The notes under the pieces: model-generated
Database searches by the model: none
The model's input: only the letters and a program-made list of their open reading frames with translations
Told to the model about the DNA's origin: nothing
Translations under genes and position numbers: made by a program
Source of the DNA: a virus
Taxonomy: Duplodnaviria > Caudoviricetes
DNA: 64,000 nt
Direction: 5' to 3' (one strand)
IMG/VR virus record: IMGVR_UViG_3300002552_000444
Coordinates: 36,088-100,087 of that record
In this document: piece after piece, positions 33,165-60,206 of the stretch
Layout: each line of letters opens with the position of its first letter
Position numbering within the stretch: position 1 is the first letter of the stretch

Positions 33165-34145
33165 TTATGTTAAATATAGTTCGTCTAAATCTTCCGAGTC
33201 ATCACGCACAACATACAGTTCAGTTGTTGTGCTTGACTCGTGTCCGAGAAGCTTTTGGGCAACCTTGATATCAACCCCCTCATCAACAACAAGTTGTGTC
33301 GCGCGAGAACTGCGAACTAGATGCGGATAAACTCTGCGCCCAACAATCTTTGTGAATGTATTGGATGCCCAAGTGTTGAATGTCGTGTCGTTGACTTGTT
33401 TGACTTTTCCGCACACCTTGTGGACGAACATGAATGGACAATCGTCAACCCCACGCGCCTCAAGCCACTTCTTCAAAACCTGCATAGTTGCTTCGCTAAA
33501 CGCAAATTGTCTCACTTTCCCAAGATCACCTCGCCCCTTGCAACGAATTTTGTTTGTCAAATAGTAGACAACCTTTTTATCGCCCTTCTCTTTCACAATA
33601 GGCTTACTGTCAACGACATTCTTCAAAAGTTGCCTACTCTCAGCTCTGCGACACCCTGTGTCATGAGTGAAAACAAGATAGGCTATTTTCTGATGCTCTT
33701 GTTTTTCTGCAAGCGATTCAATGAGATTGTCAAACTCCGCTTTTGTCAGCGGAACTTTCACATGCTTGTTGACTTTCGCTGGTCTTGCGATACTTTTGTT
33801 AATGAAGTTGCGAAACATTTGATAGTCATCTGAAAAATAAATTTCGATGTAGTTGTTCAACGAACTTATCGCCGCACGTTTATTTGCGCAATCACTTGAC
33901 GAACACTCTCTCGCAACTAGCCAATTTTGAAATCTCTTGAACTCCAAAGGCTTGATGTCAATTTGCCTTTTATTACTCAAGTTATCTTTGACCCACACGA
34001 ACCAAATCCGCAAATTCGATTCATATGCTTTTCTTGTTTTTTCCGACAGCTCGGTTGAGTCTGCCAGAAAGTTAGTTAGCAGTTCTTTGTTAAAATCACA
34101 AACGCCGTCCCAAACAGACGGCGTTATTGGCTCTAATTTCTTCAT
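33165..34145 (-). CDS. Tyrosine recombinase
   Basis: TGCRRAE, KGRG, HLVRSSRAT, LGH...TTELY catalytic set. Confidence 0.92.
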   Translation of the reverse strand: MKKLEPITPSVWDGVCDFNKELLTNFLADSTELSEKTRKAYESNLRIWFVWVKDNLSNKRQIDIKPLEFKRFQNWLVARECSSSDCANKRAAISSLNNYIEIYFSDDYQMFRNFINKSIARPAKVNKHVKVPLTKAEFDNLIESLAEKQEHQKIAYLVFTHDTGCRRAESRQLLKNVVDSKPIVKEKGDKKVVYYLTNKIRCKGRGDLGKVRQFAFSEATMQVLKKWLEARGVDDCPFMFVHKVCGKVKQVNDTTFNTWASNTFTKIVGRRVYPHLVRSSRATQLVVDEGVDIKVAQKLLGHESSTTTELYVVRDDSEDLDELYLT

Positions 34146-39996: not shown

Positions 39997-40037
39997 AAAT
40001 CCTGCACTGATAGGAATATCTGTGCAGGATTTTTTTG
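39997..40037 (+). terminator. Rho-independent terminator
   Basis: aaatcctgcac/gtgcaggattt plus T-run. Confidence 0.8.
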
Positions 40038-40136
40038 CATCTTTTTACTTACCTATTTTTTACTATGAAAAACTGTGCGACAATTTGAGTGGTATTTCCG
40101 CTTGACTTACCAATCATATTTTCGTATAATGTAACT

Positions 40137-40451
40137 ATGGATATTGAAAATCAAACTAAAAAAAGGGGTCGTGGGCGTCCACAGCTAACTCCTGAGCAAA
40201 AAGAACAACGACGAATTAAAAATAACAAGCGCTCTAGTGAACATCACAAAAAGACTGGATATGCTGCTCAAAAAAAATATAAAGACGCCCACCCTGAAAC
40301 TTATAATTTCTATGAACCCGCCATTAGAATAGACAGAGTTTTTGAAAATGCTTTTATAAAATTATGCGAAAATGAGGAAAAATCACATTCCGAGATTTTT
40401 ATATACGCTATAGAAAAAGTTTTTGATATTACTCTATCTAAAAAAGATTGA
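40137..40451 (+). CDS. Small basic DNA-binding protein (AT-hook-like RGRGRP), leaderless
   Basis: TTGACT(40102)-17-TATAAT(40125)-6nt-ATG(40137). Confidence 0.7.
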   Translation: MDIENQTKKRGRGRPQLTPEQKEQRRIKNNKRSSEHHKKTGYAAQKKYKDAHPETYNFYEPAIRIDRVFENAFIKLCENEEKSHSEIFIYAIEKVFDITLSKKD

Positions 40452-40476
40452 CATCCATTTAAATTTATGTTATTAT
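40448..40476 (+). promoter_or_regulatory. sigmaA-type promoter
   Basis: TTGACA-17-TATTAT with extended TG. Confidence 0.7.
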
Positions 40477-40677
40477 CTAGGCGAACAATTGCTTCGTGGT
40501 TGTTGCGATTGTTCTCATGGTTTTCTGTTCCTAAAGCAGACGGTCTGGCACGACATCGTTAAGTCTGCCCACCCTTTGGGTGTTTTGATTGACCGACGGT
40601 CTCATGAATAACTGATATCATAAGACAGTCGGCACTTAGTCTTCTGTCTAACTTAATAAATTTTACAGGAGGCTTGT

Positions 40678-41115
40678 ATGCCAAAAAAAATGCCCCAATT
40701 TAAGAACACAAAAGAATTCTGGAAATGGTTTGACTCTATTAGAACATCTGAAAGTTATCATATCATAAACAAGAAAAGATTTGATAATGCCATTAGTGCA
40801 ATCAACACAATTTTCGCCTTAATCTCTGAATCAAACCCCAATAGAACAGCCATCTCGCTAAAGCAAGATGATTTATTGGGAACTGCTCTTGATATAGAAA
40901 TTATCACAGATGTTGCAATTATTGATGACCTCGAAACTTTTTGCAATGCTTTGCGCAAGGCTGATGTTTATGAAACTTGCAGTTTAACAAATGGAAAACA
41001 TTCAATCGGCATTAGTTTTGAAGATGTTTTTGACTTTGCACCACCAACTAACTCCCCTTTTCCTGAATATGAAAAAGGGCATGGTGAACCTGTTCTTGTT
41101 AAAAAACTGAAATAA
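40678..41115 (+). CDS. Hypothetical protein
   Basis: AGGAGG RBS; terminator hairpin at 41140-41168. Confidence 0.75.
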   Translation: MPKKMPQFKNTKEFWKWFDSIRTSESYHIINKKRFDNAISAINTIFALISESNPNRTAISLKQDDLLGTALDIEIITDVAIIDDLETFCNALRKADVYETCSLTNGKHSIGISFEDVFDFAPPTNSPFPEYEKGHGEPVLVKKLK

Positions 41116-41240
41116 ACTGAATCAAATAGCACTTTTATCGAAAGTGTCTTGTTTTCAAGACACTTTTTCAATTAGAAACCAACTTGGAGTCACGCAAAAT
41201 TTGTGTGACTTTTTTGCTGCCCTTTTGGGTGGAGGCTATC

Positions 41241-41567
41241 ATGAGAAAAAAGAAACATCAATACGATTGGGTCAGCATGACTGAAGTGAAAAAATTATTC
41301 AAGCAATCTTCTCACTTTAGTTTTGCACTTCGTAACATTTCAATCAACGGACAAAAGCGTGGGTGTAGCGGTTTTATTCTCAACAAACTAACAGGCAAAG
41401 TAGCCTACATAACTACTGAGCCGTTTTGGGACGGCGGGCTTTGGGGCAACTTGTCTCAAAGCATTATGATGAGAACTGCAAAGCACATAAAAGACTATTC
41501 TGGTGGCAACAACCAATGGCTAAGTTTTGAAAGTATCTTTGAGTTTGCAGAGCAACTAACCGCTTAA
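41241..41567 (+). CDS. Conserved-looking phage hypothetical protein
   Basis: GGAGG RBS; NGQKRGCSGFI...RTAKHIKDYSGG. Confidence 0.7.
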   Translation: MRKKKHQYDWVSMTEVKKLFKQSSHFSFALRNISINGQKRGCSGFILNKLTGKVAYITTEPFWDGGLWGNLSQSIMMRTAKHIKDYSGGNNQWLSFESIFEFAEQLTA

Positions 41568-41639
41568 TCAAAAGAGATTGCTATTCAAACTAGAGATAGT
41601 TTGACTGTGATAAAAAATCTAAAAAGGAGGATATGCAAA

Positions 41640-42032
41640 TTGAAAACAAAAATTCTAGGAAAGACATTTGTTGCAACATCATCAATTCCTGCTGATGACA
41701 TCAAATTGCTTGCAGAAAAGGCACCTGAAAAGCTGACGGTTCAAGATGACAAAGGCAATCATCTTTTTGCTGTTTCATTCAACGAAAAGCACAAAGGCAT
41801 CACACCGCAAGGCATTGCTTTTGATGGTATTTCTGACTGCGATCAAAAATTTGCAACGCTATCGGGAACTATTCCTGACACTGTTGATACAAAAGATGCT
41901 ATAGGACATGTCGCAGATTATCTCAGTGGCATCAGCAGTCATTTTGGAAAGTTGGAAAAAACAATTCCAGCTGCGGCAAGCGGTTTGAGAGAAAAACGCA
42001 AGAAAATTCTCGAAAACATCGAAAAAGTCTAA
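41640..42032 (+). CDS. Hypothetical protein heading the Ubl operon
   Basis: TTG start 9 nt after AGGAGG. Confidence 0.7.
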   Translation: MKTKILGKTFVATSSIPADDIKLLAEKAPEKLTVQDDKGNHLFAVSFNEKHKGITPQGIAFDGISDCDQKFATLSGTIPDTVDTKDAIGHVADYLSGISSHFGKLEKTIPAAASGLREKRKKILENIEKV

Positions 42033-42124
42033 TGCGCACTTGGCGAACGGGAGTCGTAGAATTATGCGGCTCTCGTTTATCGCCTAATCAAAAAAGAGCA
42101 AATCGCTCGAAGGAAAACAATAAA

Positions 42125-42367
42125 ATGATAACAGTAAAATTGAACACAGACTCTATAAGAGACAAAATGATTGTCTCTGAACTCGACAAAACTCCAAACT
42201 CGATTTTCTCAACTCTCGGAATCAACCCAAGTGGCTCAATGGTGAGCATTGACGGAAGAACTTTGGAGTCTCATGAACTGGACTTGACTTTCGAAGAACT
42301 GCATGTCAAAGCGGGCGCAACAACAAGTCTCAATTCCAATGTTAAGGCTGACGGCGGGACTAACTAA
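42125..42367 (+). CDS. Ubiquitin-like beta-grasp protein (Ubl)
   Basis: 80 aa from ATG 42125. IDGRTL...LDLTFEEL resembles the ubiquitin GKQL..GRTL segment; ends KADGG-TN; adjacent to E1 and JAB genes. Confidence 0.8.
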   Translation: MITVKLNTDSIRDKMIVSELDKTPNSIFSTLGINPSGSMVSIDGRTLESHELDLTFEELHVKAGATTSLNSNVKADGGTN

Positions 42368-42382
42368 AAACAAGGAGGCGAT

Positions 42383-43780
42383 ATGCCCGTGAATTTGAAA
42401 GACAATCTTCTTTTGAGTGACGATGTTGGCTATTTCTTTCATGATGGCTTTTCTTTTTCTAATGATGCCATGTTGAAAGTTGCGCTTAGGCATATCGCCA
42501 TCCGTCGCGCTCAAGATGACATTGAAAAAATTAAGCCAATCACTTTTCACTATTCGTCGTTCAACTACGGCAACAATATTGCCGTTCACATAGACGCTTA
42601 CAAAAACCACACTGAAAACATTTTCATTTTTGACAGGTCTTCCCTTCCTCAGCAAACCAGCCCTCTTCAAGAGGGCTGGGAGGAATTGCGTTATGAAAAA
42701 TATCCCATCTTAGAGTTTCTTTCAAAGGCAGCACCAACTTCAATCTATATCAACAAAGAGCTAGAAAAAGTGATTGTTTTTGTTGCGAAATTAAACGAAA
42801 AATGGGTGTCTAGTTTTTCATCTAGTCTGTTTCGAATTTTGACCTGGCTATTTCCAGACACACAGCCAGACGATGATGAACTCATCTTGTTCAAAGCTAT
42901 TTCAGAACGCAATCTTGACTCACTCGAAAAGCTGTCAAATGATGTTTGCAAGACAATCGACTTCGCAAAAGAAAAAAGGCAAAGAGAAACTGAACACTTC
43001 AAAAAAGACTTGCATGGTTGGGGTAGTGGCGCCTACTATTCCATGGTTCAAAACCTTGAAAATGGCGCTGGAAACACTAGGCAAAGCATCTCAGTCAAAA
43101 CTTCTGAACTTGCTAAACTCATTGAAACATTGAACGAGCAAACAATGCAACTAAATGCACTACGGAACAGTCCCCCACCAAACTCAGATGATGTCTTTGA
43201 GTTCTTTGATATGCATAGACAACTCACAACCTTGAAAGTCGAAAAAGACTATGACGGAAAGCATTTGTTCTATTTGATAAATGAAAAAATCGAATACTAC
43301 GATGTCGATGAGTTTGTCAAGCAATTCAAAAACAAACATTCAGATTTGAACAAAGCAAAGTTCTCAAGTGAGTTTCTCGAGATTGTCTATGGCTTATTTG
43401 CACTAGGAAAAGGCAGCGTCAAGACACGATGCGTTTTCAAGCTAACTGGAATATCCCAATTATACCCAGAGATGCACTGGAAGTATGGAGACACAAAAAT
43501 TCTTCCACATCCGCATCTTGACATGGGCGCATGTCTTGGGAGAAATTCATCTGCAATCGTCGCATATCTTGCTAATAGCAATTGGAGTCAAGCAGTATTG
43601 CAATCAATTGTAGCAACAAAAAACATCAACTTTCGTGACACACATGTGGTGATGAAAATGATGCGCTGGCTAAACAGCAAACTCAATTCAAAATCAAAAC
43701 TGATCGTTTCAGACAAAGGCATAGAAATGTCTTTGAGTGAATTTCATGCCTATCTAAAGGAGCTAACTAATAATGGCTAA
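42383..43780 (+). CDS. Coiled-coil protein with C-terminal E2-like domain
   Basis: PHPHL...ACLG resembles the E2 HP[NH]..CL active site; operon context. Confidence 0.65.
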   Translation: MPVNLKDNLLLSDDVGYFFHDGFSFSNDAMLKVALRHIAIRRAQDDIEKIKPITFHYSSFNYGNNIAVHIDAYKNHTENIFIFDRSSLPQQTSPLQEGWEELRYEKYPILEFLSKAAPTSIYINKELEKVIVFVAKLNEKWVSSFSSSLFRILTWLFPDTQPDDDELILFKAISERNLDSLEKLSNDVCKTIDFAKEKRQRETEHFKKDLHGWGSGAYYSMVQNLENGAGNTRQSISVKTSELAKLIETLNEQTMQLNALRNSPPPNSDDVFEFFDMHRQLTTLKVEKDYDGKHLFYLINEKIEYYDVDEFVKQFKNKHSDLNKAKFSSEFLEIVYGLFALGKGSVKTRCVFKLTGISQLYPEMHWKYGDTKILPHPHLDMGACLGRNSSAIVAYLANSNWSQAVLQSIVATKNINFRDTHVVMKMMRWLNSKLNSKSKLIVSDKGIEMSLSEFHAYLKELTNNG

Positions 43781-44498
43781 ACCAATAAATCTTCCTGCTG
43801 ACTATGTTGCAAAGCACATGGAAAAGGTTCGCAACGAGTTGTCAGGCAGAAACTACAAAATAGACAAATTAAAACTATCCATTCCACTCGAATCAGACGA
43901 TCGCCGCGCCATCGTTTATTTCACGCTGAAAGCGTGGACAAAGATGAACGCTCTAGTGAGAGATTTCAAGACAGAGGTTCAGTGGCATGGGATTGCCGAC
44001 AGGATTTGCGAAAATCAATTCATTGTTCAAGACCTTCTCATCTTCCCACACGAAGCGACTGAAGTGAGCGTAGTCTCAGACGCTATGGAATATAAAGAGT
44101 GGCGAGATAATTTGGATCTGGACACATTCACAAGACTTCGGTTTCATGGGCATAGCCATGTCAATATGCGAGTGATTCCGTCTCAAATTGACGATGAATA
44201 TCGCAGAGGAAAATTGAATAATTTTGCCAACCCAACTCAAGAAGACGATTATTTCTACATTTTCGCAATCCTCAACAAAAGGGGCGACATTGACTGTCAA
44301 ATCTATGACATCACAAACAATGCTAGATACGATGATAACGAAGTTTTCATTGACATCTTGCTCGAAGATGATTCTTATCTCAGCTCGTTTGTTGAAGAAG
44401 TGAGAGATGTTGTCAGAGAGCCAATTCCAAAAACCAAATCTATCGTCAACAATGCAAACCAAAAAACAATCAATTCAAATGTTAAGGAGGCTTCATGA
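43773..44498 (+). CDS. JAB/MPN (JAMM) metalloprotease
   Basis: EVQW.G plus HSH-VNMRVIP-S-QI-D = HxHx7Sx2D. Confidence 0.88.
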   Translation: MAKPINLPADYVAKHMEKVRNELSGRNYKIDKLKLSIPLESDDRRAIVYFTLKAWTKMNALVRDFKTEVQWHGIADRICENQFIVQDLLIFPHEATEVSVVSDAMEYKEWRDNLDLDTFTRLRFHGHSHVNMRVIPSQIDDEYRRGKLNNFANPTQEDDYFYIFAILNKRGDIDCQIYDITNNARYDDNEVFIDILLEDDSYLSSFVEEVRDVVREPIPKTKSIVNNANQKTINSNVKEAS

Positions 44499-45178
44499 AT
44501 TTAATCAAATCACAAGACTTTTTCAATCCTCTCGATGTCGATGGTCGTTGTCATATCATAGGCTGCGGCTCTGTTGGCTCGACTGTCGCTGAACTTCTCG
44601 CAAGACTTGGCATCACGAGAATTTCACTCTATGATTTCGACGATGTTGCGCCACACAATCTAGCAAATCAAATGTTCTATAATGAGGACATTAAACGAAA
44701 CAAGGTTGATGTCGTTAGCGAGATGATTTGCAAAATCAACCCTAATGCAGACAACGAAGTCCATGTGTTCCCTGACGGCTGGAGCAATACCGTCAGACTA
44801 AGTGGATATGTTTTTCTTTGTGTTGATAACATCGACCTTAGGCGCGAGATTGTGACACTCAACAAAATGAATGGTTCTATCAAAGCCATGTTTGATTTCA
44901 GGACTCGTCTTGAAGATGCCCAGCACTATGCCGCTGACTTTAGCGACCCCATGCAAGTTGAAAATCTCCTCAAGAGCATGGCGTTCACTCATGAAGAAGC
45001 AAAAGCTGAAACACCTCAAACTGCTTGCAATGTCGAGATGAGTGTTGCTCCAACTATCCGCATCATTTGTTCATATGGAGTTGCAAACTTCATGAATTTC
45101 ATTCGAAAAAAAGAAGACAAACCGCTCAAAAAAATCGTAACTATTGACGCATTTGACTTTCACATCATTGCAAACTAA
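44495..45178 (+). CDS. E1-like ThiF/MoeB adenylyltransferase
   Basis: IIGCGSVGS, DFDDV..HNLANQ, K, CVDN; candidate catalytic Cys in TACN. Confidence 0.92.
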   Translation: MNLIKSQDFFNPLDVDGRCHIIGCGSVGSTVAELLARLGITRISLYDFDDVAPHNLANQMFYNEDIKRNKVDVVSEMICKINPNADNEVHVFPDGWSNTVRLSGYVFLCVDNIDLRREIVTLNKMNGSIKAMFDFRTRLEDAQHYAADFSDPMQVENLLKSMAFTHEEAKAETPQTACNVEMSVAPTIRIICSYGVANFMNFIRKKEDKPLKKIVTIDAFDFHIIAN

Positions 45179-45220
45179 TAGCCCTTGACGAAAACATAAA
45201 GGGCATTTTGCAAATTAAAA

Positions 45221-45541
45221 AACTAACAAAGTTATACCTATTTTTTCTATATTTTAGGACTTTTGATTACATCAAAAGTATCATTTTGTGAAGATGATAA
45301 CGCAGCCAGCTACCGAATCCCATCAGAATGCCGTTCTTGGTCGCTCTGATTTTCGAACAAATGCTGTTGATTTGTCAGCAATCGACTTCTAATAAGAAGT
45401 GCGATTTAGATGTTGTTTTAGCGCTAAAGGTGCGATTTGGCTAAAGCATTATTTATTTTATCACCAAGTTCGGCTTCAGAACCCTTGTTGGCGTCGCCAT
45501 TGCCTCCTTCGTCTTCTTCATTTCATTCGTGTTTGTTAGTT
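45221..45541 (+). ncRNA. Retron-like msr-msd ncRNA, unit 1
   Basis: IR aactaacaaa (45221)/tttgttagtt (45532), G45231, hairpins ccta..tagg and acttttgat-tac-atcaaaagt. Confidence 0.8.
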
Positions 45542-45560
45542 ATATATTTCATCTAAAACA

Positions 45561-45846
45561 CCAATAAAGTTATTCTTAAATTTCCATTTTAAGGCTTTTG
45601 ATTACATCAAAAGTATCACATTGCAAGGATGAAAATCCCACCCGCTGGTCATGCACCGCTCTCTGCCACGAACTTAAGGTCAAGGTTTCTTGGCATTGCG
45701 AAGTGCGCTTACGCTTTGGTCGATGTCGATTCCCACTGTTTTTTCTTAACTTTTTCTTTAAGAAATTATCTAATAGGATTCCTTATCGGCTTGCCCAGAA
45801 GCGCTGAGTTTCTTCCTTCTGTCGTTTTTTCAATCATGTTTATTGG
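45561..45846 (+). ncRNA. Retron-like msr-msd ncRNA, unit 2
   Basis: IR ccaataaa (45561)/tttattgg (45839), G45569, hairpins cttaaa..tttaag and cttttgat-tac-atcaaaag. Confidence 0.8.
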
Positions 45847-45940
45847 ATGTAATCAGCACTTTTGTGTTGAATTTTTAATCAAAAAATTGGGAGGTAATTA
45901 TCATGAAAAAATTGTAAAACTATAAACCCTAAAAACTATT

Positions 45941-46226
45941 AACTAATAAAGAAATTCTTAAATACATTTTAAGGCTTTTGATGAAATCAAAAGTATCACA
46001 TTGCGAGGATGAAAACCTGCCTACAGGCATCGCTGGTCTTCAGGATAGCGCTTCCTTGTTGGGCTCGCGAACTCTTAGGCGTGGGTTACTCATTAGAAAA
46101 GGAACTGTTTTCCCTATTTCTATTTCGTTGAAGTTTAATATTTTTTTATAAATTCATCGTTACGACGGGTATCCTTCTGCCGCATTGGCCGCTGGTCAGT
46201 GCCAAGTTCAATCGTGTTTATTAGTT
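45941..46226 (+). ncRNA. Retron-like msr-msd ncRNA, unit 3
   Basis: IR aactaataaa (45941)/tttattagtt (46217), G45951, hairpins cttaaa..tttaag and cttttgat-gaa-atcaaaag. Confidence 0.82.
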
Positions 46227-46258
46227 TACTTACCTAATCTTTTGAAGGAGTAAAATCT

Positions 46259-47446
46259 ATGCCATTTATAACAATACCAACGACACCTAGAGAGTATCAA
46301 TACAGTTTCGATGACATTCTCTTTGGGATAAAAAAATCAGTCTTTGAAAGCCATCGAAACCAACAAGGAAACACTAGGACTGTCTTTAGAGAAGTCACTC
46401 CTAGTCGGCTCCTTGAATTCAATGACTTCCCGAAAATGTTGAGCGTGCTTGTTGACTTCAACAAAAAGCATGAGAACTTAATCAACATGAAAAACAAAGC
46501 AACTCTGTATGAGAGCTTCAAAATCAAAAAGAAAGGTGGCGGCGGACTAAGACAAATTGATGCACCTCTTGACGAATTAAAATGCGCGCTCCGCGAGTTG
46601 AAAGATATTCTCGAAACCACATTCCATGCGACCAATCACACAACTGCCTTTGCTTATATCAAAGGGCGCTCTACGCTTGATGCCGTCAAACGACATCAAA
46701 GTAACAACTCAAAATGGTTTTTGAAACTTGATTTCAAAAACTTTTTCGGCAGCACAACTCTTGATTTCGTCATGCGCCAACTAGAACACATATTCCCTTT
46801 CAACGAAGTCTTAAAATTGCAATGTGCGAAAGAGGAATTTCAAAAAGCATTGTCATTGGGATTCCTAAACGATGGACTCCCGCAAGGAACTCCGTTATCC
46901 CCTATTCTGACAAACATCATGATGATTCCGATTGACCATCATATCGCTACCATCATGCGAAAGCAAACCCCTCATATTGTCTACACACGATACGCTGATG
47001 ACCTTTTGTTGTCTGCTGATGTTTCGTTTAAGTTCCGCGGCATTGAATCGCTAGTCATGGATATTTTGAAAAATTATGATGCACCATTCACTCTCAAAGC
47101 GGAAAAAACAAGATACGCCTCGTCTTCTGGGCGCAACTGGAATCTCGGGGTTATGCTTAACAAGGATAATCAAATCACAATCGGACACCAAAAGAAAAAG
47201 CACTTCAAGGCAATGCTGTTCTCTCTCCACACCGACTACGAAAAGGGTGTTGTTTGGAGCATGAGCGATGCACGAGAGTTGCAGGGTCTTATTTCCTACT
47301 ACTCAAATGTCGAGAGTGAACAAATCAAAAAAATCATTGACGGCTATGACAAAAAATTCAACCGCAAAACAAAAGACATAATCAAAAACACACTTCGAGG
47401 ACTCATTCCTCGAAAGCAACAACCAAAAACGGCATATGCCGCTTAA
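46259..47446 (+). CDS. Retron-type reverse transcriptase
   Basis: KKKGGGGLRQIDAP, AFAY..GRS..DAVKRH (region X-like), KLDFKNFF, LPQGTPLSP.LTN, YTRYADD, NLG in place of VTG (region Y). No maturase or endonuclease domain. Confidence 0.92.
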   Translation: MPFITIPTTPREYQYSFDDILFGIKKSVFESHRNQQGNTRTVFREVTPSRLLEFNDFPKMLSVLVDFNKKHENLINMKNKATLYESFKIKKKGGGGLRQIDAPLDELKCALRELKDILETTFHATNHTTAFAYIKGRSTLDAVKRHQSNNSKWFLKLDFKNFFGSTTLDFVMRQLEHIFPFNEVLKLQCAKEEFQKALSLGFLNDGLPQGTPLSPILTNIMMIPIDHHIATIMRKQTPHIVYTRYADDLLLSADVSFKFRGIESLVMDILKNYDAPFTLKAEKTRYASSSGRNWNLGVMLNKDNQITIGHQKKKHFKAMLFSLHTDYEKGVVWSMSDARELQGLISYYSNVESEQIKKIIDGYDKKFNRKTKDIIKNTLRGLIPRKQQPKTAYAA

Positions 47447-47449
47447 ATC

Positions 47450-47743
47450 AAAAAGCAAATCGTAATTCTTTCATATTTTTTAATGAAAGGCATTGGATTA
47501 CATTCAATGTTCCATCTTGAGAGAGCGAAAGGCACGCAGCCAAGGAGAGCTGCATGTCATCCGTCCCGCGCTCAAGACACTGCTCTGCCTGCAAAGGTAT
47601 CGGTTTAATATTTAGTCCCCGACTTTATGTGCTATTTACAACGCCGACCTAAATCTTTCCCAAAGAACCAGCACGGTAGCCCGCTGAGTCAGGTGAGATT
47701 TGGATTCGCTGATGCAGTTTATTATTTGATGGATTTGCTTTTT
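47450..47743 (+). ncRNA. Retron-like msr-msd ncRNA, unit 4 (divergent, downstream of RT)
   Basis: 12-bp IR aaaaagcaaatc (47450)/gatttgcttttt (47732), G47462, hairpins ctttcat..atgaaag and cattgga-ttaca-ttcaatg. Confidence 0.72.
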
Positions 47744-47765
47744 AACTATTTAGGAGAAAACAAAA

Positions 47766-49058
47766 ATGGATTTAAAAATTCAATCTAATGAGCAAGGCAC
47801 TTGCCCTGTCTGCAAAAGCACAAATCTTGAGATATGTGGCAGCGAAAATGTTGATGAAAGCGGATATTATGAGGAATGGCAATGCTCCAACTGCGAATGC
47901 ACTGGCAAACAATACTTTGAATTTGCTGATCACTATGATGTATATGCAAAAGACGGCGAAACTCGAATTGACAAAGAGGAGCAAAACAACTTCCCTTACT
48001 TGAAAAAAGATCGCCTATTGATTTTGCTAGACAATGCGCTAACAGTTATTCATGAACTAACAGGCGAAGAAAGCGGCTATGCTAATCTCCATGACTTGCA
48101 ATGCGAGTTAGGGATTGCTCGTGAGGAATATGCCGCTATAACAAAACTAAAAACGAAGAAAACGATGACGAGGAGAACAACCAAAATGAGCAAATTTGAC
48201 TTAGCCTTTGAGAAAGGCTGTATAAGCATCATGAACGAATATAACCAAGCTAAATGGAACGATGACGATATTGAGCCTTTAGATGGTGATGAAGTCGATG
48301 CTCTAACTGAGCGCATCAGAAATCGACTGAATTTGATGAACGGAAACATTACTGGTGCTGAATATGAGGAATTAGAAGGCAGGGTCTCGCCTTCAATTAA
48401 AACAGGCATTCATCAATGCTTAATGTGTAATAAGTCAGTAGATATTGCCAAGAGTAATTATTGGTCTGCCCCATCAATTGACAATGGTTCAGATGAACCT
48501 CTATTTTGTTCTGAAACATGTATTGTTGATTACTTTGGTTTGCGTTGGATTGAAAACAAGAAAAATGATAATTTCAAAATTGTCAAATGGAACAATGAGG
48601 AAGGTGTTAGAAAATTTAAATGTTTCAACATCAAGCATGATGTCGGGACTTCAATTGCTTCAGATATTTTAGAAGATATGCTCAACTCAGTTGGACTGCA
48701 ATTAGCATTGAGCGGTGATTTTGAAGAAGAATTATATGACCTGATTGAAAATGCTAAAATCCGTCAGCTCAGAAAACAATTTGAAGAAATCATCATAGAA
48801 GTTCATGGCGAAATTGACGATGAGCATATTGAGGATATGCTCTGCAACGAGATTAGCGAAATCACAAACTTTCTGCACGAGGGTTTTGAGTTTGTTGAAA
48901 TAATTTATCCCCCGCACATCAACTGCAATCACTGCGGTTATAAGCAGCATGATGAACAAACAATCAAATCTCATTGTGACAAATCTAACGAATACTCGGA
49001 GATAGGCTCGTATATGTGCGGCACTTGCATGGACATGAGCGCGGAGGAAGAATTTTAA
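47766..49058 (+). CDS. Acidic multi-domain protein with several CxxC motifs
   Basis: AGGAG RBS; CPVC, CSNC, CLMC, CNHC, CGTC. Confidence 0.75.
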   Translation: MDLKIQSNEQGTCPVCKSTNLEICGSENVDESGYYEEWQCSNCECTGKQYFEFADHYDVYAKDGETRIDKEEQNNFPYLKKDRLLILLDNALTVIHELTGEESGYANLHDLQCELGIAREEYAAITKLKTKKTMTRRTTKMSKFDLAFEKGCISIMNEYNQAKWNDDDIEPLDGDEVDALTERIRNRLNLMNGNITGAEYEELEGRVSPSIKTGIHQCLMCNKSVDIAKSNYWSAPSIDNGSDEPLFCSETCIVDYFGLRWIENKKNDNFKIVKWNNEEGVRKFKCFNIKHDVGTSIASDILEDMLNSVGLQLALSGDFEEELYDLIENAKIRQLRKQFEEIIIEVHGEIDDEHIEDMLCNEISEITNFLHEGFEFVEIIYPPHINCNHCGYKQHDEQTIKSHCDKSNEYSEIGSYMCGTCMDMSAEEEF

Positions 49059-55661: not shown

Positions 55662-55718
55662 ATGCGTGGATTGTTTTTACGATTGGACATCCTCGCTTTT
55701 AAGCAAGGAGAAATCACT

Positions 55719-56576
55719 ATGAAACAGCCACTCACAAATATAATATTCGTTCCTTATCCTATTCAAATTGAAAACGAAGAGAAACCCAAAAAAATCAAGA
55801 ATAAGCCTGTTCCCTACTCTGAGTTCAAATCCGACGGTAAACCTAAACCACAAGCAGCAGATTCAATTCGTTCTTATGACGATTTCGTCGCTATTCAAAA
55901 TTATCTATTGAACAATGGACATAAGCACTTGCGAGTCCGCAACTGGGCAATCTGGACGATTGGAGTAAGTTTTGGAATTCGCGCTTCAGATGTCTGCATT
56001 TTGAGAGTATGCCATTTGATTGACGAAAACGGCAACATTCGCAAGAGGTTGAAAATCAATGAAAAAAAGACAGGAAAATTTAATAACATTCTCATTACGG
56101 AGTCCGTTCAAGATGCTTTGCAAAAATATTTTTTGTCTTTAAAAAGCCCGCTTGGCTATCTTGGCTATGATGATTATTTATTCCCTAGCGAAAAAGGCAA
56201 TCAACCTCTTGAAAAACAACAACGCTGGCGCATATTCGATACTGCTGGTAAAAAGTTGAACTTACCTTTTAATGTCGGCGCCCACACCATGCGGCATAGT
56301 TTCCAAAGTATTGTTGCCTCGGTTGACAAAACCAAGATTGATATGAATTTTATCACAAAAGCACAGTTCATGCTAAACCACACCGACCAACGAACAACAA
56401 TGGCATATTTGAAAATCTTTGATAAAGTGAGCGACAAAGCTCGCATTGCTGTGAGTGAATTCATCCTTGGACGAACTGATGTGAACGAACTAATCCCATT
56501 AACTTATGAAGACAAACACTCACTTGACGATGTTGTAAAACTGCTAGAAGAACTAAAAACCAATATAGGAGACTAG
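55719..56576 (+). CDS. Tyrosine recombinase (catalytic domain only)
   Basis: GIRASD, EKKTGK, HTMRHSF, LNH, TMAY. Start refined to ATG 55719. Confidence 0.9.
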   Translation: MKQPLTNIIFVPYPIQIENEEKPKKIKNKPVPYSEFKSDGKPKPQAADSIRSYDDFVAIQNYLLNNGHKHLRVRNWAIWTIGVSFGIRASDVCILRVCHLIDENGNIRKRLKINEKKTGKFNNILITESVQDALQKYFLSLKSPLGYLGYDDYLFPSEKGNQPLEKQQRWRIFDTAGKKLNLPFNVGAHTMRHSFQSIVASVDKTKIDMNFITKAQFMLNHTDQRTTMAYLKIFDKVSDKARIAVSEFILGRTDVNELIPLTYEDKHSLDDVVKLLEELKTNIGD

Positions 56577-57476: not shown

Positions 57477-59117
57477 ATGCATTCATACAAAAATATATTT
57501 GAGCAACATATAATTGTCTCTGCGTATTGTCGAGTTTCAACCGACAAGGACGACCAAGCAAACTCACTTGATAGTCAAATTAAATACTTCACTGATTTTA
57601 TAAAAAACCACAAAACATGGCAGTTAGGTGAAATATATTACGATGAAGGATTAAGTGGGACATCTGTTAAAAAACGCAAAGCATTTAACCGAATGATTCA
57701 AGACGGATTAAATGGAAAATTCCATTTAATTATCACCAAAGAAGTCAGTCGATTTGCCAGAAACACCGTTGACACGCTCCAATATACAAGAACACTCAAA
57801 GATAAAAATGTTGGCGTTTATTTCATGACAGACAATATTTGCACACTAGACAGCGACGGAGAGTTGCGTCTTACCATCATGGCAAGTATCGCTCAAGAAG
57901 AAAGTCGTAAAACAAGTGAGCGTGTTAAATGGGGTCAAAGGCGCCGAATGGAGCAAGGAGTTGTTTTTGGCAATGGAATAATATATGGTTACTTTTTGAA
58001 AAACGGCAAGTTGTCTATAAACCCAGAAGAAGCTAAAACTATAAAATTCATATTCACCAGTTTTTTAGAGGGTCATGGAATAGAAAAAATTTCAACAATG
58101 CTTGATGATGCGGGCTATAAAACTAAATGGGGAAAAAGATGGTATTCAAGAACTGTTTACGATATTTTGAAAAACGAAAAATATGTCGGCGATTTAGTGC
58201 AAAAGAAAAAATGCACACCAAACTTCTTGACTAAGCATAGAATAATGAATCCAGACCAAGATGACTTAATAATTAAACAAAATACTCATGAAGGAATTGT
58301 TAGCAGAGAAATTTGGAACCAAGTTCAACTTGAAATTGAAAGACGCTCAACTTCCTCAGAAAGAAAGATAAGATTTTCAAGTCGATATTGGTGTAGTGGA
58401 AAAGTTGTTTGCGGAGACTGTGGCGACACTTACACCTCTGTCAACAAAAACCACAACACTAGAAAAAAATCACATTACTTTTCGTGTAAAACTTATGCTC
58501 GAAGAGGAACAAAAAAAGTAGATGAGTTTGGAAAAACTATTGGCTGCGACAATAGACCCGTTCAAGAGTATGGAATTAGATATATATTCCAAGAAGCACT
58601 CCGTTTTGTTGAGTTTAATAAGGACGAGATAAAAAAGGAAATTTTGCAAGAACTAAGATTAATTCAACAAGAGCAAGAACTCAAAAGCGTCGAAAACTTT
58701 GACAAAAAAATTAAAGAACTTGAACACAGGAAAATCAAATCTATCGACTTAGTTTTTGATGGAGTAATAAGCAATGAGAACTTGAAAAAATTAGTTTCAA
58801 AATACGACGAGGAAATTGCTGAACTAAATGCAAAGAAAATTGAGACTGAATTATATAATCACAAACTCTCGAACAGAGGCGATTTCTTCTCATCCCTAAT
58901 AAATGAAATTGACAAAATATTGCTCTTGGAATTAGAGGAAGAAAGAATTGAGAGTTTCAATAGCATCCTTGAGAAGATAGTTGTTTTCAGCAATAAAACC
59001 ATGCTGATATATCTAAGTGGACTGGGTTTTGGCATCAAAGCACAGTATAAAACAACTGGCGGCTACCATGGCTATAACATTAATGTCGAAAGCATCAACA
59101 TAGAAGAAATCGCATAA
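57477..59117 (+). CDS. Large serine recombinase (integrase)
   Basis: AYCRVST, DEGLSGT, SRFARN, LKNEKYVG, Zn ribbon CGDCG, coiled coil. Confidence 0.95.
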   Translation: MHSYKNIFEQHIIVSAYCRVSTDKDDQANSLDSQIKYFTDFIKNHKTWQLGEIYYDEGLSGTSVKKRKAFNRMIQDGLNGKFHLIITKEVSRFARNTVDTLQYTRTLKDKNVGVYFMTDNICTLDSDGELRLTIMASIAQEESRKTSERVKWGQRRRMEQGVVFGNGIIYGYFLKNGKLSINPEEAKTIKFIFTSFLEGHGIEKISTMLDDAGYKTKWGKRWYSRTVYDILKNEKYVGDLVQKKKCTPNFLTKHRIMNPDQDDLIIKQNTHEGIVSREIWNQVQLEIERRSTSSERKIRFSSRYWCSGKVVCGDCGDTYTSVNKNHNTRKKSHYFSCKTYARRGTKKVDEFGKTIGCDNRPVQEYGIRYIFQEALRFVEFNKDEIKKEILQELRLIQQEQELKSVENFDKKIKELEHRKIKSIDLVFDGVISNENLKKLVSKYDEEIAELNAKKIETELYNHKLSNRGDFFSSLINEIDKILLLELEEERIESFNSILEKIVVFSNKTMLIYLSGLGFGIKAQYKTTGGYHGYNINVESINIEEIA

Positions 59118-59207: not shown

Positions 59208-60206
59208 ATGTGCCTAATAGATGCTGGGCACGGAGGAAGCGATCCGGGGGCAGTTAATGGAAACAGATTTGAAAAGGATGACACGCTAAGAATGGCATTT
59301 GCTGTTCGAAACATTTTAAGAAGCTGTGGGGTTAATGTCGTGATGACTCGCTCAAACGACACCTTCATTCCACTTGGAGAACGCTCAAGAATAAGCAACA
59401 ATCTTAACCCTCAACCGAGACTTTTTGTGTCAATACATCGAAATGGTTCAACAAACCCAAATTTCAATGGGACAGAAGTTTTCGTTCACCCGACTCGCCC
59501 ACCCGCTTCAGTCGCAGCTGGAAACACTGTTTTAAACAACATTGCTAATATTAGTCCAATGGCAAACCTTGGTTTGCAAGAGGGTAATTTTAGTGTTTTG
59601 AGAGAGACTCGTGCGCCGGCAATTTTATTGGAACTTGGATTCATCTCAAACACAAGAGACAACCAGTTGTTCGATGAACACTTCTGCGAATATGCAAGGG
59701 GTGTTGCTAATGGAATTATGCAGTCAATCGGTGTTACTTGCGGAAACCCTTTGCCCCCATCTCCTCCACCTGTTGTTCCACCACAACCAACCCCACCAAT
59801 TCCACCACCAACCGACATCATCAGAAATATTCAATCGACCCTAAACTCGCGTTATGATGCTGGACTTAATGTTGACGGTGTTTGGGGAGCAACATCAAAT
59901 CGTGCGCTAATCAGAGGGTTTCAAACCGAACTTAATCGCGAATTCAACGCAGGACTTGTCGAAGACGGCATCTGGGGGCCAAGAACAAGAGGTGCAACAA
60001 GAATTCTCAGAAACGGTGACAGAGGCAATCTTGTCTGGATTCTACAAGCGGCTTTAAATCGCCAAGGTTTTCAGACTGGCGGACTAACAGGAGTATTTGG
60101 CCCAATGACAGAAGCAGCAGTCCGCTCATTCCAACAATCTGTCGGACTTCCAGCCGACGGCCTAGCTGGACCAAACACCTTTGAAGCATTGTTCCGATTA
60201 AATTAA
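59208..60206 (+). CDS. N-acetylmuramoyl-L-alanine amidase (Amidase_3) with Pro-rich linker and PG-binding domains
   Basis: IDAGHGGSDPGA, EK, SIHRN, ILLELGFISN; DGxWG and DGLAGPNT repeats. Confidence 0.92.
   Translation: MCLIDAGHGGSDPGAVNGNRFEKDDTLRMAFAVRNILRSCGVNVVMTRSNDTFIPLGERSRISNNLNPQPRLFVSIHRNGSTNPNFNGTEVFVHPTRPPASVAAGNTVLNNIANISPMANLGLQEGNFSVLRETRAPAILLELGFISNTRDNQLFDEHFCEYARGVANGIMQSIGVTCGNPLPPSPPPVVPPQPTPPIPPPTDIIRNIQSTLNSRYDAGLNVDGVWGATSNRALIRGFQTELNREFNAGLVEDGIWGPRTRGATRILRNGDRGNLVWILQAALNRQGFQTGGLTGVFGPMTEAAVRSFQQSVGLPADGLAGPNTFEALFRLN

What the first reader, a model, noticed from the sequence alone, without database searches (positions are those of the whole stretch)
41640..45178. 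Phage-encoded complete ubiquitin-like conjugation operon (Ubl, E2-like, JAB, E1)
SEEN: tightly coupled genes for an 80-aa beta-grasp-like protein ending ADGG-TN, a 465-aa protein with HPH..CLG, a JAMM protease with intact HxHx7Sx2D, and a ThiF/E1. No thiamine, Moco or sulfur-transfer genes are nearby. KNOWN: E1+E2+JAB+Ubl sets conjugate proteins in bacterial defence (Bil; CBASS Cap2/Cap3). INFERENCE: the JAB removes TN to expose GG, and the phage ubiquitylates host or competitor proteins (counter-defence, takeover or superinfection exclusion). The E2 call is the least certain.
Basis: partly seen in the sequence, partly recalled or inferred. Interest (0 to 1): 0.82.

Follow-up and report, generated by a model that had tools for sequence, protein, structure and literature searches.

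The report
Phage ubiquitin-like tagging operon
A prophage of a gut Clostridia-type bacterium carries a tight operon for a small ubiquitin-like tag, an activating enzyme, a transfer-enzyme candidate and a trimming protease, and across about 140 related phage loci this kit almost always sits directly before a retron-type reverse transcriptase, a pairing I found in no paper.

Summary
At 41640-45178 (+) five translationally coupled genes encode an unknown 130-aa protein ("UP130"), an 80-aa Ubl ending KADGG-TN, a 465-aa protein, a JAMM/JAB peptidase and a 227-aa ThiF/E1.

Only the E1 reaches a curated family threshold. The other assignments rest on evidence gathered here:
- **E2 call (the doubtful one):** supported at fold level. 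AlphaFold models (pLDDT 93-95) give a C-terminal domain whose structural neighbours are almost all E2/UEV/RWD folds, but only at Z 5-6.8. His378 and Cys384 are invariant in 130 homologues and lie in the β4-α2 loop, where the E2 active site lies.
- **JAB:** E68, H127, H129, S137 and D140 are invariant.
- **Ubl:** the family ends in KAD[N/G/S][A/G] plus 0-3 residues. In some phages it is fused at exactly that point to UP130, which supports trimming by the JAB.

In 142 loci (IMG/VR, GTDB MAGs, GenBank) the order UP130-Ubl-E2-JAB-E1 is conserved. A retron-type RT follows in 113 of 118 loci that are long enough to show it.

It is not a sequence member of Bil, CBASS Cap2/3 or PRTRC. Target and purpose are unknown.

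This scan has noted the same Ubl+RT block before on other DNA (54 notes). I found it in no paper.

The parts
41640..42032 (+). UP130: 130-aa protein of unknown fold and the first gene of the conserved module. In some phages it is fused to the C-terminus of the Ubl.
   Evidence: TTG start after AAAGGAGG. Homologues lie upstream of the Ubl in 101 of 122 loci. The five Ubl-UP130 fusion loci are counted among the 21 without a separate hit. No Pfam, PDB or PHROG assignment.
42125..42367 (+). Ubl: 80-aa ThiS/ubiquitin-like candidate tag ending KADGG+TN.
   Evidence: The family motif VVKAD[N/G/S][A/G] followed by 0-3 residues is seen in about 50 distinct homologues. Sub-threshold PDB hits are enriched in beta-grasp proteins: SAMP2, TtuB, ThiS and ubiquilin, E 0.6-1.5. 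Pfam gives DUF2604 and TUG-UBL1 weakly. The fold was not modelled here.
42383..43780 (+). E2-like protein, 465 aa: N-terminal alpha/beta domain (1-200, unassigned), a 50-residue helix (213-262), and a C-terminal UBC/RWD-like domain (266-465) with invariant H378, C384 and G386.
   Evidence: AF2 pLDDT 93.2 for the full protein and 95.0 for the domain. VIA-align neighbours are RWD, UEV and E2 folds at Z 5-6.8, including the Cap2 E2 domain 7to3_A (Z 6.2) and the Bil E2 8tyz_C (Z 5.4). The family has 1748 representatives at 50% identity. No Pfam E2 model matches any of 83 members.
43773..44498 (+). JAMM/JAB metallopeptidase, 241 aa, with a complete E…HxH-x7-S-xx-D site.
   Evidence: E68, H127, S128, H129, S137 and D140 are invariant in 48 and in 72 homologues. 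The family profile aligns to Rpn11 over 110 residues with these residues in register, E=0.011. No Pfam or NCBIfam hit.
44495..45178 (+). Minimal E1/ThiF-type adenylating enzyme, 227 aa, a single Rossmann adenylation domain.
   Evidence: Pfam ThiF 5.2e-25, 88.4 bits. PDB sequence neighbours are TcdA, UBA5, ThiF, MccB, MoeB and Uba1, over the first ~100 residues only. Family-conserved residues are G23xG25xxG28, D47, D49, K70, D111, R116 and C178. The canonical Arg of the 'NRQ' motif is Asn58.
45179..46258 (+). Non-coding spacer between E1 and RT. Other notes of this scan read it as template-RNA units; I did not analyse it.
   Evidence: No ORF with family support. No Rfam match at E<=1. An E1-to-RT gap is present in related loci, median 354 bp, range -9 to 2284.
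46259..47446 (+). Retron-type reverse transcriptase, 395 aa, YADD intact. It lies outside the finding's coordinates but is part of the conserved block.
   Evidence: RVT_1 4.8e-24. NCBIfam retron St85 family 193.5 bits, below the cut-off of 235. PADLOC RT_II-A 1.1e-52. Present downstream of E1 in 113 of 118 loci.

Best explanation
This is a phage-borne ubiquitin-like conjugation cascade built from diverged, uncatalogued families. It is part of a larger conserved module: UP130, Ubl, E2-like, JAB, E1, spacer, retron-type RT.

Proposed mechanism (all steps inferred):
1. The JAB peptidase cuts directly after the KAD[N/G/S][A/G] end of the Ubl. In this phage that removes Thr-Asn; in phages with the fused gene it releases UP130.
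2. The minimal E1 adenylates the exposed C-terminal Gly or Ala, possibly passing it to its conserved Cys178.
3. The tag moves to Cys384 of the UBC-like domain of the 465-aa protein.
4. The N-terminal domain and long helix of that protein choose the target.
5. The JAB can also reverse the tagging.

Shown here: the identity of the E1, the intact JAMM site, the UBC/RWD-like fold with an invariant His/Cys pair, the conserved Ubl end, and the gene linkage.

The target is unknown. The best candidates are UP130 (the fused genes look like a ready-made linear conjugate), the neighbouring RT, or proteins of the host or of rival phages. Because the RT is linked in 96% of informative loci, I expect tagging and reverse transcription to serve one pathway in phage-host or phage-phage conflict.
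For: - E1: Pfam ThiF above threshold. Nucleotide-binding and Mg-binding residues and a loop Cys are conserved in 61 homologues.
- JAB: five catalytic residues are invariant. The family profile aligns to Rpn11 in register.
- E2-like: confident models. Structural neighbours are almost only E2/UEV/RWD domains, including two bacterial conjugation E2s. H378/C384/G386 are invariant in 130 sequences, placed between strand 4 and the next helix as in E2s.
- Ubl: a conserved small-residue C-terminus with 0-3 extra residues. Fusion to UP130 occurs exactly at that site in L006, L028/L032, L033, L058 and L133.
- In that system a JAB pre-processes the Ubl, which carries up to nine extra residues.
- Overlapping stops and starts show co-translation.
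- The module is conserved in 120 of 142 loci, with an RT in 113 of 118.
- No ThiG, MoaE or rhodanese in the record.
Against: - No curated E2, JAB or Ubl model matches, and Foldseek found nothing.
- The structural Z-scores (5-6.8) are in the range the tool calls middling, and the top rows are non-catalytic RWD domains.
- The Ubl fold was not modelled. Its sequence evidence is sub-threshold.
- The E1 lacks the near-universal Arg of the SNLNRQ motif (Asn58). It has no separate Cys domain or ubiquitin-fold domain, unlike Bil E1.
- Most family Ubls end in Ala, not the obligatory Gly reported for BilA.
- No E3 was seen and no target is known.
- The loci were mostly retrieved with the JAB as bait, so JAB presence is biased by design.
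Confidence: 0.6

Rival explanations
1. E2-independent tagging. The E1 alone activates and transfers the Ubl, as in archaeal SAMP/UbaA and TtuB/TtuC. The 465-aa protein would be a non-catalytic RWD-like adaptor or scaffold, for example one bridging to the RT or UP130.
For: The best structural matches are non-catalytic RWD domains: Knl1 Z 6.7, Csm1 Z 6.8 and the SEA complex Z 6.4. No E2 sequence model matches. The E1 has its own conserved Cys178.
Against: His378, Cys384 and Gly386 are the only invariant residues in 130 sequences that are only about 20-40% identical to the window protein. They sit where the E2 active-site loop lies. A pure scaffold would not need them.
Confidence: 0.15
2. Sulfur-carrier pathway. 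The Ubl is a ThiS/MoaD/QbsE-like carrier, trimmed by the JAB as QbsD trims QbsE (my knowledge) and thiocarboxylated after adenylation. The sulfur would go to a small molecule or to the RT's RNA or DNA product.
For: The Ubl alignment pattern and its weak hits resemble ThiS, TtuB and SAMP2. The nearest E1 sequences in the PDB include ThiF, MoeB and the tRNA-modifying TcdA. An Atlas lead points to a cluster in which 10% of members carry ThiS.
Against: No rhodanese, ThiG, MoaE or other sulfur-transfer gene in the 100-kb record or in the conserved module. The family end is mostly Asn-Ala rather than Gly-Gly. A conserved E2-like protein has no role in such pathways.
Confidence: 0.08
3. Nucleic-acid or nucleotide conjugation. 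The activated Ubl (or UP130) is joined to the RT's cDNA or RNA, or stays as a peptidyl-nucleotide as with MccB, so the protein part primes, caps or marks the reverse-transcribed product.
For: Near-obligate linkage of the cassette with an RT and a non-coding spacer. MccB is among the nearest E1 sequences. An Asn is common at the penultimate Ubl position.
Against: There is no precedent known to me for a Ubl-E1-E2 system acting on retron products. MccB needs a terminal Asn, whereas here the terminal residue is Ala or Gly. At least five loci carry the cassette without an RT within about 6 kb.
Confidence: 0.07

Closest known systems
BilABCD (Bil) bacterial ubiquitin-like conjugation systems, Type I and II (10.1101/2023.09.04.556158; 10.1101/2023.09.26.559546)
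   Same: Four separate genes in the same order: Ubl, E2, JAB deubiquitinase, E1. The Ubl often carries a short C-terminal extension that the JAB removes. The E2-like domain here superposes on Bil E2 8tyz_C at Z 5.4, rmsd 3.4 Å, 90 residues.
   Different: - Carried by phages rather than bacterial defence islands.
- The E1 is a 227-aa single adenylation domain, not the multidomain BilD with inactive and active adenylation domains plus a CYS domain.
- The E2-like protein is three times longer, with an extra N-terminal domain and a long helix.
- The Ubl usually ends in Ala, whereas BilA's terminal Gly is fully conserved.
- Two extra conserved partners: UP130 and a retron-type RT.
- No detectable sequence homology apart from the E1 Rossmann core.
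Type II CBASS Cap2 (E1-E2 fusion) and Cap3 (JAB)
   Same: E1, E2 and JAB chemistry attached to a nucleotidyltransferase-based conflict system. The E1 here matches the E1 part of the PADLOC 'E1-E2' models (best 3.7e-15). The Cap2 E2 domain 7to3_A is a structural neighbour (Z 6.2).
   Different: E1 and E2 are separate proteins. A dedicated Ubl exists, whereas CBASS uses the enzyme's own tail. The partner is a reverse transcriptase, not a CD-NTase.
Retrons (RT + msr-msd RNA + effector; 13 types, PMC7736814)
   Same: The adjacent RT is nearest to retron RT families: St85 model 193.5 bits, PADLOC RT_II-A 1.1e-52. It is preceded by a non-coding spacer.
   Different: The RT scores below the St85 family cut-off of 235. 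No retron type in that classification has ThiF, JAB or ubiquitin-like partners (0 mentions). The partners here are a five-gene Ubl module, and the carrier is a phage lineage rather than a bacterial island.
PRTRC cassette (ParB-related, ThiF-related cassette) of plasmids and integrative elements
   Same: A mobile-element cassette with ThiF-type E1, JAB, E2-like and small Ubl proteins (my knowledge of the NCBIfam TIGR03735-03742 set).
   Different: PRTRC_ThiF scores 31.3 bits against a cut-off of 144.75. No PRTRC A, B or C model matches the JAB, E2-like or Ubl proteins at E<=0.1. I noted no ParB-like gene in the module.
Lambda/T1 tail-assembly Ubl (TAPI) with JAB-NlpC protein (TAPK) (PMC1779556)
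   Same: Phage-encoded beta-grasp protein with a JAB peptidase predicted to cleave after its C-terminal small residue.
   Different: That pair lies in the tail operon and has no E1 or E2. Here the genes are in the early arm, on the opposite strand from the tail genes, and include an E1 and an E2-like protein.

Membership tests
E1/ThiF superfamily (Pfam PF00899) | Score above the curated Pfam threshold; GxGxxG nucleotide loop and Mg-binding Asp | tested here: met
   88.4 bits against a cut-off of 28.1. G23xG25xxG28 and D111 are conserved in 61 homologues. The Arg of the NRQ motif is replaced by Asn58.
JAMM/MPN+ metallopeptidases | E…HxH-x7-S-xx-D zinc site | tested here: met
   E68, H127, H129, S137 and D140 are invariant in 48 and in 72 homologues. 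They align in register to Rpn11, E=0.011.
JAMM/MPN+ metallopeptidases | Match to a curated JAB/MPN sequence model | tested here: not met
   No Pfam or NCBIfam hit at E<=0.1 for the window protein. No precomputed Pfam domain on 59 homologues.
UBC/E2 superfamily | UBC-type fold: helix, four-strand meander, active-site loop, then helices | tested here: met
   Domain model pLDDT 95. The structural neighbour lists consist almost entirely of E2, UEV and RWD domains at Z 5-6.8, with rmsd 3-4.5 Å over 80-119 residues. These Z values are middling, and Foldseek found nothing.
UBC/E2 superfamily | Catalytic Cys in the loop after strand 4, preceded by an HPN-like motif | tested here: inconclusive
   P377-H378-x5-C384-x-G386-x-N388 is invariant or nearly so and lies between strand 97-101 and helix 124-135 of the domain model. 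I could not obtain a residue-level superposition on an E2 Cys, and thioester chemistry is untested.
UBC/E2 superfamily | Match to a Pfam E2 model (UQ_con, Prok-E2_A to E) | tested here: not met
   None of 83 family members matches any such model at E<=1. PF14460 gives no hit in the record at E<=10. The only pointer is an Atlas lead of 0.87 to a Prok-E2_D cluster.
BilABCD | Four genes in the order Ubl, E2, JAB, E1 | tested here: met
   order compared.
BilABCD | Multidomain E1 (inactive + active adenylation domains, CYS domain) | tested here: not met
   The E1 here is 227 aa with one adenylation domain.
BilABCD | Ubl with a fully conserved reactive C-terminal Gly | tested here: not met
   The family end is [N/G/S][A/G], and most members end in Ala, against BilA as described. 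The window's own copy does have Gly-Gly.
Type II CBASS Cap2/Cap3 | E1 and E2 fused in one protein; a CD-NTase as substrate | tested here: not met
   E1 and E2-like are separate genes. The PADLOC matches cover only the E1 part. No CD-NTase model matched the seven module proteins scanned.
PRTRC cassette | NCBIfam PRTRC models above cut-off | tested here: not met
   PRTRC_ThiF scores 31.3 bits against 144.75. No PRTRC A, B or C hit.
ThiS/MoaD sulfur-carrier pathways | Partner sulfur-transfer or cofactor enzymes (ThiG, MoaE, rhodanese) nearby | tested here: not met
   No match in the 100-kb record while the control genomes matched.
Ubiquitin-like beta-grasp fold (for the 80-aa protein) | Beta-grasp fold | tested here: inconclusive
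   Only sub-threshold sequence hits, though 9 of 14 are beta-grasp proteins. Weak DUF2604, TUG-UBL1 and SAMP2 Pfam hits.
Retrons | RT above a retron family cut-off | tested here: not met
   The neighbouring RT scores 193.5 bits against 235 for the St85 family. PADLOC retron RT models match strongly.
Retrons | msr-msd RNA beside the RT | not tested
   I did not test the msr-msd RNA beyond one Rfam scan of 40000-48500, which found no match at E<=1.

The most novel reading that the evidence does not exclude
The Ubl cassette, UP130 and the retron-type RT with its non-coding RNA form one phage-encoded machine: a new kind of retron-like system whose partner module is a ubiquitin-like conjugation cascade. 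The natural Ubl-UP130 fusion genes would be the genetically encoded form of its conjugate (Ubl joined to the N-terminus of UP130). Tagging would then switch on, localise or prime the reverse-transcription arm during phage-host or phage-phage conflict.
Probability: 0.45. Interest if true: 0.9.

Novelty: new variant of a known kind. Interest (0 to 1): 0.78.

Why it matters
Ubiquitin-like conjugation in prokaryotes is so far known as a bacterial defence (Bil, CBASS Cap2/3). Here a complete kit, made of families that no curated library recognises, is a stable part of a large group of gut phages:
- The JAB bait found 290 IMG/VR contigs and 59 bacterial species genomes.
- The E2-like family has 1748 clusters at 50% identity.

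The kit is locked to a reverse transcriptase. If the parts work together, this links two so far separate branches of conflict biology, protein tagging and retron-type reverse transcription, and puts them on the virus side.

The system offers simple handles for the bench: a tag of about 75-80 aa ending in Ala or Gly, a 227-aa minimal E1, and natural fusion substrates for the protease.

Tried and rejected
- **Sequence libraries.** Pfam, NCBIfam, PADLOC and PHROGs gave nothing for the Ubl, the E2-like protein, the JAB or UP130. The one PHROG hit of UP130 (RusA-like, E 5e-4) is matched by 1 of 28 homologues, so I discard it.
- **PDB sequence searches.** The E2-like profiles found only coiled-coil noise, and the UP130 profile found nothing.
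- **Foldseek.** Searches against the PDB with both models found nothing at E<=0.001. BFVD returned only an uncharacterised Siphoviridae protein.
- **Word-index search.** It made the E2-like family look tiny (3 clusters) and the Ubl look unique. The exhaustive HMM search and the locus census showed this to be an artefact of divergence.
- **First locus scans.** Scans with the three-sequence E2-like alignment failed in IMG/VR and GTDB. The 130-sequence alignment was too diverse for pattern design. The JAB alignment worked.
- **Nucleotide search.** blastn of the region against GenBank phages found no match.
- **C-terminal 'NG' of many E2-like proteins as a diGly-like tail.** Rejected: it comes from the overlapping ATG of the JAB gene.
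- **Internal duplication of the E2-like protein (double RWD).** hhalign of the N-half against the C-half gave probability 0.6%.
- **Rfam.** It found nothing in 40000-48500.

Full report
**1. What is there**

The window is part of a 100,087-bp IMG/VR provirus. It has about 39% G+C. The late genes lie on the minus strand: minor tail/fibre protein, tape measure, portal, large terminase and integrase. An early arm on the plus strand starts near 37.4 kb, followed by further recombinases and an amidase endolysin.

In the early arm, five genes are packed head to tail:
- UP130, 41640-42032. TTG start behind AAAGGAGG.
- Ubl, 42125-42367. 80 aa, ending NVKADGGTN.
- A 465-aa protein, 42383-43780.
- A 241-aa JAB, 43773-44498. 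It overlaps the previous gene by 8 nt.
- A 227-aa E1, 44495-45178. It overlaps the JAB gene by 4 nt.

After a 1.08-kb non-coding spacer comes a 395-aa retron-type reverse transcriptase, 46259-47446.

**2. The E1 and the JAB**

The E1 is the only part that a curated library recognises. Pfam ThiF gives 88.4 bits against a cut-off of 28.1. All NCBIfam and PADLOC matches cover only the Rossmann core and stay far below their family cut-offs, for example PRTRC_ThiF at 31.3 bits against 144.75. In the PDB its nearest sequences are TcdA, UBA5, ThiF, MccB, MoeB and Uba1, over about 100 residues.

Across 61 homologues the following are conserved: the GxGxxG loop, D47/D49, K70, the Mg-binding D111, R116 and a loop cysteine, C178. 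The almost universal Arg of the "NRQ" motif is Asn58. At 227 aa it is a bare adenylation domain.

The JAB has no library hit. However, E68, H127, S128, H129, S137 and D140 are invariant in 48 and in 72 homologues. The family profile aligns to Rpn11 over 110 residues with exactly these residues in register (E=0.011). I accept it as an active-type JAMM peptidase.

**3. The 465-aa protein (the doubtful E2)**

The word-index search found three clusters. The exhaustive profile search found 1748 representatives at 50% identity, 225 of them at E<=1e-30. The family is therefore large but uncatalogued. None of 83 members matches any Pfam E2 model.

In 130 sequences that are 18-42% identical to the window protein, only H378, C384 and G386 are invariant. 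P377, N388, Q407, N414 and D419 are nearly so.

AlphaFold2 gives a confident model (pLDDT 93.2):
- an N-terminal alpha/beta domain, residues 1-200
- a 50-residue helix, residues 213-262
- a C-terminal domain

Modelled alone, the C-terminal domain has pLDDT 95.0 and pTM 0.89. Its topology is helix, hairpin, helical insert, hairpin, long loop, then three helices.

Foldseek finds nothing. The Foldseek-independent aligner gives lists made almost entirely of the UBC superfamily (by my reading of the entry titles):
- RWD domains: Knl1 Z 6.7, SEA complex 6.3, GCN2 5.9, FANCL 5.7, Csm1 6.8
- UEV domains: Tsg101, Vps23
- True E2s: P. falciparum E2 Z 6.2, Ube2W 6.2, Ubc9 5.8, Ubc13 5.6, UbcH5/7/10, Ubc12
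- Two bacterial conjugation E2s: the Cap2 E2 domain 7to3_A at Z 6.2, and the Bil E2 8tyz_C at Z 5.4

The Z values are middling by the tool's own yardstick, so the weight lies in the uniformity of the list.

The invariant P-H-x5-C-x-G-x-N lies in the loop between the fourth strand and the next helix. That is where E2s carry HPN…Cys.

My verdict: a UBC/RWD-like fold is likely (about 0.85), and a catalytic E2 role is plausible (about 0.65). The N-terminal domain is unassigned and is not a duplicate of the C-terminal one.

**4. The Ubl and UP130**

The 80-aa protein looked unique by word index. The locus census recovered about 50 distinct homologues.

The alignment has a ThiS-like rhythm and a sharply conserved end, VVKAD[N/G/S][A/G]. 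This is followed by nothing in most phages (…KADNA-stop) or by 1-3 residues: R, AA, RK, AI, LAA, VVM, and TN in the window. The window's "GG|TN" therefore aligns with "NA|stop".

Stronger still are loci L006, L028/L032, L033, L058 and L133. There the Ubl is fused to UP130, with the junction directly after the motif: …KADNA|AKIKVAG and …KADNA|AYIKIAG. Free-standing UP130 starts MAKIxIxG.

This fusion resembles a ubiquitin-fusion precursor. It is also what an N-terminal linear conjugate of Ubl on UP130 would look like.

The beta-grasp fold itself is only weakly supported:
- 9 of 14 sub-threshold PDB hits are beta-grasp proteins (SAMP2, TtuB, ThiS, ubiquilin, a designed ubiquitin) at E 0.6-1.5.
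- Pfam gives weak DUF2604, TUG-UBL1 and SAMP2 hits.
- The Atlas gives a 0.85 lead to a cluster in which 10% of members carry ThiS.

UP130 has no assignable fold.

**5. Conservation and context**

With the JAB alignment as bait, 290 IMG/VR contigs matched and 80 were fetched. In GTDB species genomes, 59 matched. I added two RT-seeded loci and one GenBank gut phage, MT835544.1.

HMM annotation of all ORFs gave:
- Ubl+E2-like+JAB+E1 in 120 of 142 loci, always in this order. Most of the rest are cut by contig ends.
- A Ubl in 124 of 128 loci with room upstream.
- A UP130 hit in 101 of 122 loci. The fusions are counted as missing.
- An RT downstream of E1 in 112 of 118 loci with at least 3.5 kb of room. 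This becomes 113 after Pfam found a diverged RT in L136. The median gap is 354 bp.

Five loci (L056, L110, L118, L131, L132) carry the cassette without an RT within about 6 kb.

The carriers are 40-130-kb phage contigs. Two of five records tested share the window's terminase. The three without a match include two complete or nearly complete ~50-kb phages, one of them with terminal repeats. The module thus crosses phage lineages.

MAG titles point to Clostridia of animal and human guts: Christensenellaceae, Oscillospiraceae, Lachnospiraceae and Acutalibacteraceae. Some copies sit on contigs of 240-430 kb, i.e. as prophages.

No ThiG, MoaE or rhodanese is present in the record.

**6. How it most likely works**

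I read it as a Ubl conjugation cascade, in these steps:
1. JAB trimming or de-fusion.
2. E1 adenylation of the terminal Gly or Ala.
3. Transfer to Cys384.
4. Delivery to a target chosen by the N-terminal half of the E2-like protein, with the JAB also able to reverse it.

All steps are inferred. What is shown is the parts list, the catalytic residues, the fold and the linkage. Rivals are an E2-independent route with the 465-aa protein as scaffold, a sulfur-carrier route, and conjugation to the RT product.

The purpose (exclusion of other phages, counter-defence, or a step of the phage's own cycle) cannot be decided from sequence. The RT linkage makes a joint pathway likely.

**7. Comparison and novelty**

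The nearest described system is BilABCD. It shares the gene order and JAB pre-processing of the Ubl. This module differs in these ways:
- a minimal E1
- a three-domain E2-like protein
- a Ubl that mostly ends in Ala, against a fully conserved Gly in BilA
- two extra conserved partners
- residence in phages

It fails the tests for CBASS Cap2/3 (no fusion, no CD-NTase) and for PRTRC. Iyer et al. 2006 describe phage Ubl-JAB pairs only in tail operons. The retron classification of Mestre et al. 2020 mentions no ThiF, JAB or ubiquitin partner.

Full-text searches combining RT, ThiF, JAB, phage and ubiquitin-like returned nothing. A 2026 preprint on RT loci with repeat arrays does not mention these genes. 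Papers outside the searchable library could still describe it.

Within this scan the same Ubl+RT block has been noted many times on other DNA: 54 notes in at least 32 genomes. Those are unchecked AI notes. The linkage claim I re-derived myself.

I class the finding as a new variant of a known kind (bacterial-type Ubl conjugation). The open possibility is that the whole module is a new kind of retron-like system.

Noticed in passing
window 43773-43780; family in P0004-P0151: Many E2-like homologues end in …NG or …NE. In the window this comes from the JAB start codon lying inside the last codons (AAT GGC TAA / ATG GCT AA). I read it as conserved translational coupling, not a diGly-type tail.
   Followed up: partly
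L006:5797-6438, L028:5826-6446, L033:5040-5738, L058:4945-5565, L133:5787-6431: Natural Ubl-UP130 fusion genes, with the Ubl first although the free genes lie in the opposite order. The junction is directly after the KADNA end, and UP130's initiator Met is replaced by Ala.
   Followed up: partly
L131:1177-2209 and L132:5265-6295: Two Ubl genes with the same C-terminal end flank UP130, and these loci have no RT after E1. A Bro-N protein follows instead.
   Followed up: partly
L143:7070-9630; L135:6426-7848: L143, on a 244-kb Oscillospiraceae MAG contig, holds a decayed copy of the whole module: E2-like 157 aa, JAB 190 aa, E1 65 aa and the RT in three pieces. In L135 the E2-like gene is split into 334 + 134 aa.
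   Followed up: no
L041:4532-5221, L050:3110-3739, L053:4534-5223: A second, short (209-229 aa) protein matching the E2-like family lies about 1-2 kb upstream of the module in some phages.
   Followed up: no
window 47766-49058: A 430-aa protein rich in paired Cys motifs (zinc-ribbon-like) lies directly after the RT block. It has no hit in Pfam, PADLOC or PHROGs, and no homologue was found in the other loci.
   Followed up: partly
window 33165-34145 (-), 55662-56576 (+), 57477-59117 (+): Three recombinases in one prophage: two tyrosine integrase-type genes and a large serine recombinase. The serine recombinase lies just before the amidase endolysin at 59208-60206.
   Followed up: no
G001:C1:29008-30795 (record of L003): The large-terminase relative (59% identical) in this related phage has one in-frame TAA.
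   Followed up: no
L093, L095, L117, L123, L127, L132, L137, L139 (record titles): Some module-bearing contigs are binned with Bacteroidales, Prevotella, Alistipes or even 'archaeon' MAGs, while most are Clostridia. These are probably phage contigs mis-binned into MAGs.
   Followed up: no
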